Sequence record: OQ850288 | Strand: one strand, 5' to 3' | Length of the DNA stretch: 64,000 bases | Origin: Escherichia phage vB_EcoM_ULIM9 | Shown here: one piece after another, positions 47,199 to 47,627 of the stretch | Layout: each line of letters begins with the position of its first letter | Numbering within the stretch: the first letter of the stretch is position 1 | Translations under genes and position numbers: made by a program | The notes under the pieces: generated by a model | Databases searched by the model: none | What the model was told of the DNA's origin: nothing | What the model saw: the letters and a program-made list of their open reading frames with translations, nothing else

Positions 47199-47397
47199 AT
47201 TAAATTATCTTTGTAGATAAGCTACCCAGACTTGCTTAAGGTCTGTAGCGATGTGCCTTTTTGGGTTTAAATCTAGAATTTACCCTTTCACCCTTTGTGG
47301 TCGCATACTCACAGGTAAGCTTAATAACTTATCTACAAAGATAATTACCAGACCGTTGTTTTATCATCTTAAGTGCTACCATTACACCAACTCGACA

Positions 47398-47446
47398 TCT
47401 GCCGAGTGAAGGAATCGAACCTTCGCCTTTTCTTTACCGAGAAATA
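47398..47446 (-). pseudogene. tRNA 3'-half remnant (T-arm only)
   Basis: Perfect T-arm GAAGG-AATCGAA-CCTTC (plus-strand view) with an acceptor-like 3' strand but no matching 5' half within 100 nt. Confidence 0.35.
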
Positions 47447-47627
47447 GATTGTTTAAGTTTTGCTGTAAACGGTCTTCTGTAAATTTGTTGAGCCAGACCA
47501 AGTTTTAAATTTTTCAAAATTGAATTGGCTTGAAATTTTAAGTAACTTGCTGTATTTGGTCTTCTGCTCCTTTAAAGAATACTCGTAAGAACTCTTTAAG
47601 GGAGGGGATAAATAGACCTCTCAAAAT

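What the first reader, a model, noticed from the sequence alone, without database searches (positions are those of the whole stretch)
47199..47627. Structured ORF-free spacer in the tRNA array: long-range inverted repeat, repeated 28-nt motif and a tRNA 3'-half remnant
Three features sit together. (a) A 16-20 bp inverted repeat, ATTATCTTTGTAGATAAGCT at 47204-47223 and its complement TATCTACAAAGATAAT within 47318-47346, encloses about 95 nt; it could form a long hairpin or mark a miniature inserted element. (b) A 28-nt motif TTGCTGTAA(AC/TT)GGTCTTCTGT(A/C)AA recurs at 47461, 47550, 47939 and 48108; the last two copies abut the CCA ends of tRNA genes, suggesting a duplicated tRNA-flank unit or a processing signal. 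(c) 47398-47446 keeps a perfect T-arm and acceptor 3' strand but has no 5' half, consistent with a decayed tRNA.
Basis: seen in the sequence. Interest (0 to 1): 0.55.

Follow-up and report, generated by a model that had tools for sequence, protein, structure and literature searches.

The report
Y-like RNAs beside phage Ro60 homologue
The "empty spacer" in this phage's tRNA gene array encodes several conserved, structured small RNAs, one of them a tRNA mimic, which look like the RNA partners (Y RNAs) of a Ro60-like protein encoded just upstream; the same protein-plus-RNA pairing recurs in very different phages.

Summary
The window is a Felixounavirus (FelixO1/wV8-like).

- **The 28-nt motif** is the 5' half of a conserved bulged closing helix plus UACAGCAA. 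It belongs to four paralogous RNA modules: A 47344-47483, B 47490-47569, C 47890-47962, D 48051-48129.
- **The "tRNA 3'-half remnant"** is the T arm of a complete tRNA-like domain in module A. The order is V hairpin, T arm, closed acceptor-like stem-loop, D arm, as in bacterial YrlA Y RNAs.
- **The inverted repeat** closes a fifth conserved structured RNA (E, 47203-47346). It is not an inserted element.

Best reading (about 0.7): a new variant of the Ro60-Y RNA ribonucleoprotein. Expression and binding are untested. Rfam's YrlA model does not detect module A.

The parts
48462..49877 (-). Gene for a 471-aa DUF2828/DUF7788 protein with a Ro60-like fold (helical-repeat ring plus vWA domain with an intact DxSxS MIDAS motif). 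This is the proposed protein partner.
48322..48442 (-). Two sigma-70-like promoter matches (48442-48414 and 48351-48322) between the Ro60-like gene and tRNA-Pro. These are the likely start of the tRNA/small-RNA polycistron.
   Evidence: These are consensus matches only. No minus-strand promoter-like or terminator-like site lies between 48295 and 47199.
48051..48129 (-). Module D, a small stem-loop RNA between tRNA-Glu and tRNA-Met. Layout: outer helix UGAC/GUCA, internal loop AGA/G, inner helix AGACCAA/UUGGUCU, then UUACAGCAA and a variable loop.
   Evidence: CM R1 scores 40.7-40.8 bits.
47890..47962 (-). Module C, the same architecture between tRNA-Met and tRNA-Asn (outer helix UUAC/GUAA, inner helix AGACCGU/ACGGUCU).
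   Evidence: CM R1 scores 48.3 bits on the minus strand against 8.7 bits on the plus strand.
47567..47604 (-). Hairpin H, about 16-17 bp with a UUAC(G) loop, just after tRNA-Asp. Its 3' strand overlaps the 5' strand of module B's outer helix.
   Evidence: It is conserved in Mooglevirus, Suspvirus and L015 with some compensatory changes. It has no U tail. Its role is unknown.
47490..47569 (-). Module B, a small stem-loop RNA (outer helix GAGC/GCUC, inner helix AGACCAA/UUGGUCU, AUACAGCAA).
   Evidence: CM R1 scores 30.4 bits, E 1.6e-5, with filters off.
47344..47483 (-). Module A, a YrlA-like tRNA-mimic RNA. It has the same bulged closing helix and UACAGCAA, enclosing a V hairpin (47426-47448), T arm GAAGG-UUCGAUU-CCUUC (47408-47424), closed acceptor-like stem-loop ACUCGGC-AGAU-GUCGAGU (47390-47407), UG, and D arm GUGU-AAUGGUA-GCAC (47373-47387).
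   Evidence: Covariation: 98.1% of cells paired, 12 of 27 pairs changed on both sides, acceptor-like helix 6 of 7; 99.6% and 20 of 27 on the CM alignment. CM R1 built from it scores 59 bits on the Klebsiella phage RNA that Rfam YrlA also hits.
47203..47346 (-). A 19-22 bp closing stem encloses a conserved multibranch interior. A 3'-proximal mini hairpin CAGAC-CUUAAGCAA-GUCUG lies at 47227-47245. The module ends 4 nt before the tRNA-Lys-like gene.
   Evidence: Covariation: 96.4% paired, 8 of 24 pairs changed on both sides, slid controls 28-46%. There is no Rfam hit.

Best explanation
Read on the minus strand, the spacer is a row of non-coding RNA genes: hairpin H, then modules B, A and E. Two further small modules, C and D, lie between tRNA genes nearer the upstream gene.

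Modules A-D share one closing structure. It consists of a 4-5 bp outer helix, a 3x1 internal loop (5' AGA / 3' G), a 7-8 bp inner helix (AGACCRWW / WWYGGUCU) and then (U)UACAGCAA at the 5' side of the loop. Module A carries a tRNA-like domain inside that helix, in the order V hairpin, T arm, loop-closed acceptor-like stem, D arm. This is the layout of bacterial YrlA Y RNAs.

Proposed mechanism: the RNAs are co-transcribed with the tRNAs from promoters just downstream of gene 48462-49877. They are released by the tRNA-processing enzymes (RNase P at the next tRNA's 5' end, 3' trimming after the preceding CCA). They then bind the product of that gene, a Ro60-fold protein, through the bulged helix and the ACAGCAA motif. 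The resulting Ro-Y-RNA-like particles act on structured RNAs (tRNA or rRNA surveillance, decay or repair) in the infected cell. Module A's tRNA-like domain serves as the effector or tether module, as in the Ro60-Y RNA-PNPase machines.

Shown here: sequence anatomy, conservation, covariation, strand, protein fold, and cross-phage co-occurrence. Inferred: transcription, processing, protein binding and cellular function.
For: (1) Four motif copies against 0 expected by chance, each with a complementary partner box.
(2) Closing helices of B/C/D-type modules from six Ounavirinae genomes: 98.8% of cells paired against 77% in shuffles and 23-46% in slid controls, with 8 of 11 pairs changed on both sides.
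(3) Module A: T and D arms are nearly invariant. The acceptor-like stem is ACUCGGC/GUCGAGU here, ACACGU/GCGUGU in Suspvirus and KPS64, ACCCUUC/GAAGGGU in Michonne and HP1, and CGUGG/CCACG in L017.
(4) Strand: conserved G-U pairs, and CM R1 scores 48.3 bits on the minus strand against 8.7 bits on the plus strand for module C.
(6) In Klebsiella phage FBKp34 (51% identical protein) and Mycobacterium phage MiniLon (35%), Rfam YrlA gives sub-threshold hits directly after the gene (39.6 and 37.7 bits). The CM built from module A hits the same RNAs (59 and 28.7 bits).
(7) Scan of 16 further DUF2828 loci (13 non-Ounavirinae phages and 3 Ounavirinae-like metagenomic contigs): 38 ACAGCAA stem-loops on the gene's strand against 1 on the other strand, with 0.2-0.6 per locus in shuffles. 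Most lie in the non-coding gaps abutting the gene.
(8) The YrlA order V-T-AS-D, and location within 4 kb on the same strand as Ro60, are the published hallmarks (PMC4201824).
(9) For the Listeria phage homologue, three very highly transcribed non-coding regions lie just upstream, and the authors suspected Y RNAs (PMC12282133). The homologous phage LP-064 has three ACAGCAA modules at that position.
(10) There are no internal promoter or terminator matches, and module ends abut tRNA ends.
Against: - Rfam's YrlA model does not report module A even at E<=10 in a 441-nt search, nor the L014, L016 or L017 versions.
- The published Ro-binding motif GNCGAAN0-1G / CGAA is absent. The nearest element is CAGAAG (CAUAAG in L016 and L017).
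- The protein does not match Pfam TROVE. A sequence profile reaches Ro60 only at E 1.1, so the relationship rests on a predicted structure.
- No expression, processing or binding data exist for any Felixounavirus.
- L015 lacks module A, and Vibrio phage nt-1 has no convincing module near its gene.
- The covariation sets are small (6-15 sequences, some of them paralogues), and A5 is fitted to the model.
- Embedding in a tRNA polycistron also fits a purely cis-acting role.
Confidence: 0.7

Rival explanations
1. Cis-acting elements of the tRNA polycistron only. The hairpins would be processing, spacing or stability signals (RNase III or RNase E entry sites, protection against 3' exonucleases) that help mature the flanking tRNAs. 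They would have no life as separate RNAs and no protein partner.
For: Modules C and D exactly fill tRNA-tRNA spacers, and their ends abut CCA and tRNA 5' ends. E has a 19-22 bp near-perfect stem of the kind RNase III cuts. There are no internal promoters.
Against: The same ACAGCAA stem-loops sit next to the DUF2828 gene where no tRNA is annotated beside them (Staphylococcus Ph13, Aeromonas LAh_6, Fusobacterium Fnu1, MiniLon). A processing signal does not need a complete T/acceptor-like/D tRNA mimic or an invariant single-stranded ACAGCAA. Most other tRNA-tRNA junctions in this array are 1-10 nt and carry no such element.
Confidence: 0.12
2. Free-standing phage small RNAs unrelated to the neighbouring protein. 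Examples are tRNA-like decoys for host anticodon nucleases or tRNA-modifying enzymes, or base-pairing regulators. Linkage to the DUF2828 gene would then reflect only shared early expression with the tRNA region.
For: Module A mimics tRNA and lies in a tRNA array. Binding to the protein is untested.
Against: The strand-specific association with the gene holds across phages of Gram-positive, Gram-negative and actinobacterial hosts (38 against 1). It would be hard to maintain without a functional link. The shared closing helix plus motif on otherwise unrelated loops looks like a common protein-binding handle.
Confidence: 0.12
3. One reading: evolutionary debris, made of a decayed tRNA, duplicated tRNA flanks and a miniature inserted (MITE-like) element bounded by the inverted repeat.
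For: The array does rearrange. The adjacent Lys/Ile chimera and the HNH endonuclease insertions in relatives show this.
Against: 219 of 251 related records keep at least 80% of the spacer, 193 of them at 95-99% identity. Compensatory changes occur in every helix. E is present at the same site in all genera examined. The T and D arms are invariant while the stem between them is replaced by other pairing sequences.
Confidence: 0.04

Closest known systems
Bacterial/phage YrlA Y RNAs bound by Ro60 (Rsr): Rfam RF02553; Chen et al. 2014, PMC4201824
   Same: Encoded within about 1 kb of, and on the same strand as, a Ro60-fold gene. The 5' and 3' ends pair into a bulged stem. The internal tRNA-like domain has the order V, T, closed acceptor-like stem, D, with T and D conserved and the acceptor-like stem co-varying. 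More than one Y-like RNA occurs per locus, one with and others without the tRNA-like domain (compare YrlA and YrlB).
   Different: The protein is DUF2828/DUF7788, not Pfam TROVE. The conserved motif is (U)UACAGCAA plus a CAGAAG bulge instead of GNCGAAN0-1G. The Rfam model does not detect module A. The genes are interleaved with tRNA genes and probably processed out of a tRNA polycistron. There are four to five RNAs per locus.
Thermus phage phiLo Ro60 with Yrl1/Yrl2 (PMC12135203; PDB 9L5Y, 9KOP)
   Same: A phage-encoded Ro60-fold protein with two or more adjacent phage-encoded stem-bulge-stem RNAs. That structure is among the top fold matches of the window's protein.
   Different: phiLo Yrl RNAs were picked by a CGAA motif and have no reported tRNA-like domain. 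Sequence identity of the proteins is about 15%.
Dictyostelid Class I RNAs (Rfam RF01414; PMC7919456)
   Same: A short terminal stem joins the 5' and 3' ends. A conserved motif, CCUUACAGCAA, follows the 5' stem strand directly. The loop is variable and A/U-rich. The 5' end is AAG and the 3' end CUG(U). Length is 42-65 nt. The Rfam model gives weak hits to the phage modules (25.2 and 23.6 bits in FBKp34, 14.8 bits in the window).
   Different: They are eukaryotic, transcribed from their own DUSE promoters, and reported as unique to Dictyostelia with an RRM protein partner (Rnp1A). All hits here are below the gathering score of 41.5. Whether dictyostelids have a DUF2828 protein could not be tested.
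Stable RNAs of the phage T4 tRNA gene cluster (species 1 and 2 / RNA C and D); from my own knowledge, not tested here
   Same: Small stable non-tRNA RNAs encoded inside a phage tRNA cluster, co-transcribed with the tRNAs and released by the tRNA-processing machinery.
   Different: No sequence or structure comparison was made. T4 has no DUF2828 gene next to them as far as I know.
Permuted tRNA genes (Cyanidioschyzon merolae)
   Same: The T arm and acceptor 3' strand precede the acceptor 5' strand and D arm in the gene.
   Different: No anticodon arm can be formed from the ends. The ends pair into the family's bulged helix instead. There is no CCA-end logic and no known circularisation machinery in bacteria. 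The layout is explained by YrlA-type mimicry.

Membership tests
YrlA / Y RNA (Rfam RF02553; Chen et al. 2014) | Encoded near (within about 4 kb) and on the same strand as a Ro60 orthologue | tested here: met
YrlA / Y RNA (Rfam RF02553; Chen et al. 2014) | tRNA-like domain with V, T, acceptor-like stem-loop and D in that order; T and D conserved, acceptor-like stem variable but paired | tested here: met
   Module A. T loop UUCGAUU. D loop AAUGGUA with A14, R15, G18, G19 and A21 equivalents, and U8 present. The G15:C48 / A15:U48 Levitt pairing is not evident.
YrlA / Y RNA (Rfam RF02553; Chen et al. 2014) | 5'-proximal GNCGAAN0-1G (CGAA) motif thought to contact Ro60 | tested here: not met
   The 5' strand reads (U/G)(A/G)CAGAAGACC. 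No module contains CGAA. The invariant motif is UACAGCAA.
YrlA / Y RNA (Rfam RF02553; Chen et al. 2014) | Score at or above the Rfam gathering threshold (69 bits) | tested here: not met
   No YrlA hit in the window at E<=10. Related phage RNAs reach 39.6 and 37.7 bits.
YrlA / Y RNA (Rfam RF02553; Chen et al. 2014) | Bound by the Ro60 protein; stable small RNA; carries tRNA modifications | not testable with these tools
   Needs RIP/EMSA, Northern blots and modification mapping.
Ro60 / TROVE protein family | Ring of helical repeats plus a C-terminal vWA domain with a MIDAS motif | tested here: met
   AF2 pLDDT 90.5. Full-length matches to 1yvp, 2i91, 9l5y and 2nvo. DxSxS is invariant. Sequence-level membership is not met: no Pfam TROVE hit, and the profile against PDB gives E 1.1.
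Canonical tRNA gene / tRNA pseudogene | Cloverleaf with acceptor, D, anticodon and T arms in order, detectable by ARAGORN or Rfam RF00005 | tested here: not met
   There is no ARAGORN call in 47199-47627. Rfam tRNA matches only the T arm at 14.9 bits. No anticodon arm is present.
Dictyostelid Class I RNA (Rfam RF01414) | Terminal 6-bp stem, adjacent 11-nt CCUUACAGCAA motif, 42-65 nt, score >= 41.5 bits | tested here: inconclusive
   The stem plus UACAGCAA layout is met. The score is 14.8 bits (E 6.9) for module B, and 25.2 and 23.6 bits for FBKp34 modules, all below threshold.
Miniature inverted-repeat element (for the 22-nt inverted repeat) | Presence/absence polymorphism as a unit, multiple copies, target-site duplication | tested here: not met
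   It is a single copy. It is present at the same site in all Ounavirinae loci, with compensatory stem changes.
Intrinsic terminator | GC-rich hairpin followed by a U run on the transcribed strand | tested here: not met
   There is no minus-strand terminator-like site in 47199-48295.

The most novel reading that the evidence does not exclude
The ACAGCAA stem-loop RNAs would define an unrecognised, very widespread class of Y-like RNAs that partner with the DUF2828/DUF7788 branch of the Ro60 superfamily. Under this reading, the dictyostelid 'Class I RNAs' (AAG-stem-CCUUACAGCAA-loop-stem-CUGU), described as unique to social amoebae, belong to the same class. Eukaryotic DUF2828 proteins would then also have such RNA partners.
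Probability: 0.2. Interest if true: 0.85.

Novelty: new variant of a known kind. Interest (0 to 1): 0.66.

Why it matters
- **Annotation.** It turns a stretch left unannotated or covered by 'hypothetical protein' calls in the sampled Felixounavirus records into five defined RNA genes.
- **A testable function for a large protein family.** It gives the uncharacterised DUF2828/DUF7788 family a concrete hypothesis and candidate ligands. That family has more than 700 matches in the phage collection and 2237 hits in the protein search, and no functional paper turned up in the library.
- **A wider view of Ro60-Y RNA systems.** It extends them beyond TROVE-annotated genomes and supplies a different conserved RNA handle (bulged helix plus ACAGCAA).
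- **A link to phage tRNA arrays.** It places a Ro-type RNA surveillance or repair particle, including a tRNA mimic, inside a tRNA array. This bears on why phages carry tRNA arrays and how they cope with host attacks on tRNAs.
- **A possible lead on Class I RNAs.** If the resemblance to dictyostelid Class I RNAs is homology, their biochemical role becomes directly testable.

Tried and rejected
- **Rfam, whole region and focused scans**: no curated family covers the spacer. There was only a T-arm fragment and chance-level hits.
- **Canonical or permuted tRNA gene**: rejected, because there is no anticodon arm, the acceptor-like stem is loop-closed, and the ends form the family helix.
- **Protein-coding reading**: the ORFs in the spacer are short and not conserved in length.
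- **Promoter reading of the motif** (TTGACA inside module D): no -10 partner, and no promoter call inside the array.
- **Terminator reading of H and E**: no U run.
- **Mobile-element reading of the inverted repeat**: contradicted by synteny and covariation.
- **AF2 without an alignment**: useless (pLDDT 44), so it was repeated with 62 homologues.
- **Sequence-only link to Ro60**: weak.
- **MAFFT across distant phages**: it misaligned the 3' halves, so a CM-guided alignment was used.
- **Dictyostelium test**: not possible, because afdb50 was unavailable and Avesson 2011 is not held.
- **Literature searches**: Felixounavirus plus Ro60/Y RNA, DUF2828 and PF11443 returned no functional study of the family and no link between Felixounavirus and Ro60 or Y RNA.
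- **A CM from non-Ounavirinae small modules only**: not built. Variable loop lengths would make the alignment unreliable and the expected scores marginal.

Full report
**Context.** The window is a Felixounavirus (FelixO1/wV8-like). The 1.7 kb around the finding matches 265 phage records, the best at 97-98% identity. ARAGORN finds 21 tRNA genes, all on the minus strand, between 43617 and 48295. The finding (47199-47627) lies between tRNA-Asp (47628-47704) and a tRNA-Lys-like sequence (47123-47198). The spacer is conserved: 219 of 251 related records cover at least 80% of it, 193 of them at 95-99% identity. Mooglevirus and Suspvirus relatives are 76-88% identical.

**Checking the observation.** All three features are real.
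- The inverted repeat has 22-nt arms at 47203-47224 and 47325-47346, 95% complementary, 100 nt apart.
- The motif TTGCTGTAWWYGGTCTTCTG occurs four times (47460, 47547, 47940, 48107), against none in 100 shuffles of the 64-kb window.
- A perfect T arm sits at 47408-47424. Rfam aligns only tRNA model positions 43-63 there, and ARAGORN calls nothing.
Each motif copy has a complementary partner box (ATKRCCAGACC at 47344, 47492, 47892, 48050). The "missing 5' half" of the tRNA lies immediately downstream on the RNA strand.

**Anatomy on the minus strand.** The motif is the plus-strand image of the 5' half of a closing structure shared by four modules: A 47344-47483, B 47490-47569, C 47890-47962, D 48051-48129.
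- The shared structure is a 4-5 bp outer helix, an internal loop of 5' AGA against 3' G, a 7-8 bp inner helix AGACCRWW/WWYGGUCU, and then (U)UACAGCAA opening the loop.
- In B, C and D the rest of the loop is short, A/U-rich and variable.
- In A the loop holds a V hairpin (47426-47448), a T arm GAAGG-UUCGAUU-CCUUC, a 7-bp stem closed by AGAU (ACUCGGC/GUCGAGU, 47390-47407), UG, and a D arm GUGU-AAUGGUA-GCAC (47373-47387).
- This is a tRNA elbow whose acceptor stem is capped and whose anticodon stem is replaced by the module's closing helix.
It has a branched interior and a mini hairpin CAGAC-CUUAAGCAA-GUCUG (47227-47245).
- A further 16-17 bp hairpin, H (47567-47604), follows tRNA-Asp.

**Evidence that these are real RNA structures.**
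- Fifteen B/C/D-type modules from six Ounavirinae genomes pair in 98.8% of cells. Shuffles give 77% and slid controls 23-46%. Eight of 11 pairs change on both sides. Examples are outer helices UGAC/GUCA, UUAC/GUAA, UUGC/GCAA and GAGC/GCUC, and inner helices AGACCAA, AGUAUC, AGACUA and AGAAUC with their complements.
- For module A, the T and D arms are almost invariant while the acceptor-like stem is replaced outright. It is ACACGU-UACG-GCGUGU in phiSUSP1 and KPS64, ACCCUUC/GAAGGGU in Michonne and HP1, CGUGG/CCACG in L017, and CAAGGG/CCCUUG in a Bacillus phage.
- Counts for module A: 98.1% paired and 12 of 27 pairs changed on both sides. On a model-guided alignment of nine sequences the figures are 99.6% and 20 of 27, with the caveat that such an alignment leans towards the model.
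- Module E pairs in 96.4% of cells, with 8 of 24 double changes and slid controls of 28-46%. In L015, L016, L017 and the Mooglevirus and Suspvirus loci its long stem has different sequences, and the mini hairpin keeps stem-CYUWWRGCAA-stem. E is therefore a conserved RNA, not an insertion.
- Conserved G-U pairs support the tRNA strand as the functional one. So does the covariance model's score of 48.3 bits (minus) against 8.7 bits (plus) for module C.

**The neighbouring gene.** Gene 48462-49877, on the same strand and directly upstream of the array, encodes a 471-aa protein matching Pfam DUF2828 and DUF7788.
- Sequence searches do not reach any solved structure convincingly.
- The MIDAS DxSxS motif is invariant.
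- Homologues occur in more than 700 phage records. Mycobacteriophage annotators already call them "Ro-like RNA binding protein".

**Link to Y RNAs.** Ro60 proteins bind Y RNAs. Bacterial YrlA RNAs lie within 4 kb of Ro60 on the same strand and contain a tRNA-like domain in the order V, T, acceptor-like stem-loop, D (PMC4201824). This is exactly module A's layout.
- Rfam's YrlA model does not detect module A.
- It does give sub-threshold hits directly beside the DUF2828 gene in Klebsiella phage FBKp34 (39.6 bits) and Mycobacterium phage MiniLon (37.7 bits).
- A covariance model built only from module A-type sequences (five from Ounavirinae, one from a Bacillus phage) scores those same RNAs at 59 and 28.7 bits. 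In the 64-kb window it finds nothing outside the array.

**Generality.** I sampled 16 further loci by homology of the protein: 13 phages outside Ounavirinae and 3 Ounavirinae-like metagenomic contigs. The phages were Klebsiella, Vibrio, Mycobacterium, Listeria, Campylobacter, Cronobacter, Bacillus, Sinorhizobium, Ralstonia, Enterococcus, Staphylococcus, Aeromonas and Fusobacterium phages.
- It finds 38 elements on the gene's strand and 1 on the other, against 0.2-0.6 per locus in shuffles. Fifteen of the 16 loci have at least one; L017 has none with the exact motif, though it has variant-motif modules.
- Most lie in the non-coding gaps that abut the gene, typically two or three small ones plus one with a tRNA-like insert.
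- The consensus is 5' (A)AAG-stem-(U)UACAGCAA ... stem-CUU/CCU-G.
- For a P100-like Listeria phage, published transcriptomics report three extremely abundant non-coding transcripts just upstream of the homologous gene, whose product is found in virions. The authors speculated about Y RNAs without defining them (PMC12282133).
- No paper in the library connects Felixounavirus, DUF2828 or PF11443 with Y RNAs.

**Likely mechanism.**
- The only sigma-70-like matches on the minus strand lie upstream of tRNA-Pro (48442-48414, 48351-48322) and downstream of the spacer (47107-47079). There are no terminator-like sites inside.
- Modules C and D fill tRNA-tRNA spacers, starting 1-3 nt after a CCA and ending 8-12 nt before the next tRNA.
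- I therefore infer co-transcription with the tRNAs and release by RNase P and 3' trimming. Binding to the Ro60-like protein through the bulged helix and ACAGCAA would follow. The particle would act in surveillance, decay or repair of structured RNA, with module A's tRNA mimic as the effector or tether.
- None of these steps is shown by my data.

**Limits.** The canonical CGAA motif is absent, the Rfam threshold is not met, and the protein is related to Ro60 only at fold level. The covariation sets are small. L015 lacks module A, and Vibrio phage nt-1 shows no clear module. The roles of E and H, and the overlap between H and B's outer helix, remain open.

**Verdict.** It is wrong on the decayed tRNA and the inserted element. 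The best explanation is a new variant of the Ro60-Y RNA system embedded in a phage tRNA array (confidence about 0.7).

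Noticed in passing
window 47123-47198 (minus strand): The 'tRNA-Lys(UUU)' next to the spacer is a chimera. Its 5' part, up to the T loop, is tRNA-Lys. From the T loop on it is the 3' end of tRNA-Ile(GAU). Relatives carry Lys-Met-Ile here (RNA-strand order). A T-loop-to-T-loop deletion of about 160 nt removed tRNA-Met and left a product whose acceptor and T stems cannot pair. ARAGORN does not call it, and Rfam gives 32.9 bits.
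   Followed up: yes
window 46796-46875 (minus strand): A tRNA-Arg(UCU)-like gene without a normal D arm and with a long variable arm; ARAGORN does not call it. Against VpaE1_ev78 its anticodon stem shows a compensatory change (GCUGU/ACAGC versus GCGGU/ACCGC). Mooglevirus has a canonical tRNA-Arg(UCU) at this position.
   Followed up: partly
L008 5532-5594 and 5621-5671; window 47494-47561: Rfam's Dictyostelium Class I RNA model (RF01414) weakly hits the small modules (25.2, 23.6 and 14.8 bits). The layout is the same: AAG, short terminal stem, CCUUACAGCAA, A/U loop, stem, CUG(U). Class I RNAs are published as unique to dictyostelids, and DUF2828 proteins also occur in eukaryotes.
   Followed up: partly
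L011 1929-2480 (Listeria phage LP-064): A ROOL RNA (RF03087; 87.4 bits, E 3e-16, just under the gathering score of 99.1) lies between tRNA genes about 1 kb upstream of the DUF2828 gene. It probably corresponds to one of the highly transcribed 'non-coding regions' reported for phage CKA15.
   Followed up: no
L008 6003-6116; L013 5396-5638: Over-long 'tRNAs' (113-121 nt, 'tRNA-OTHER') are annotated next to DUF2828 genes in Klebsiella phage FBKp34 and Cronobacter phage S13. They overlap hits of the module-A covariance model (L008 6041-6166, 30.2 bits; L013 5444-5568, 36.2 bits). They may be misannotated Y-like RNAs or tRNAs with inserts.
   Followed up: no
window 46876-47122 (minus strand): An ORF-free stretch follows a strong sigma-70-like match (TTGACA-17-TATAGT, 47107-47079), with weak tmRNA-type Rfam hits (15.9-21 bits). 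It was not examined. Relatives such as Alf5 and VpaE1_ev78 carry an HNH/endonuclease VII gene a few hundred nt further along the array that the window lacks.
   Followed up: no
L002 1566-1889 and equivalents in wV8, LinBro and others: Several deposited Felixounavirus genomes annotate 'hypothetical protein' ORFs across the spacer (for example Alf5_044, 107 aa, + strand). The window has only a 52-aa ORF there, so these calls are probably spurious and mask the RNA genes.
   Followed up: partly
L017 5501-5563: A weak skipping-rope RNA hit (RF02924; 29.1 bits against a gathering score of 36.7) lies between the DUF2828 gene and the tRNA array of an Ounavirinae-like metagenomic phage.
   Followed up: no
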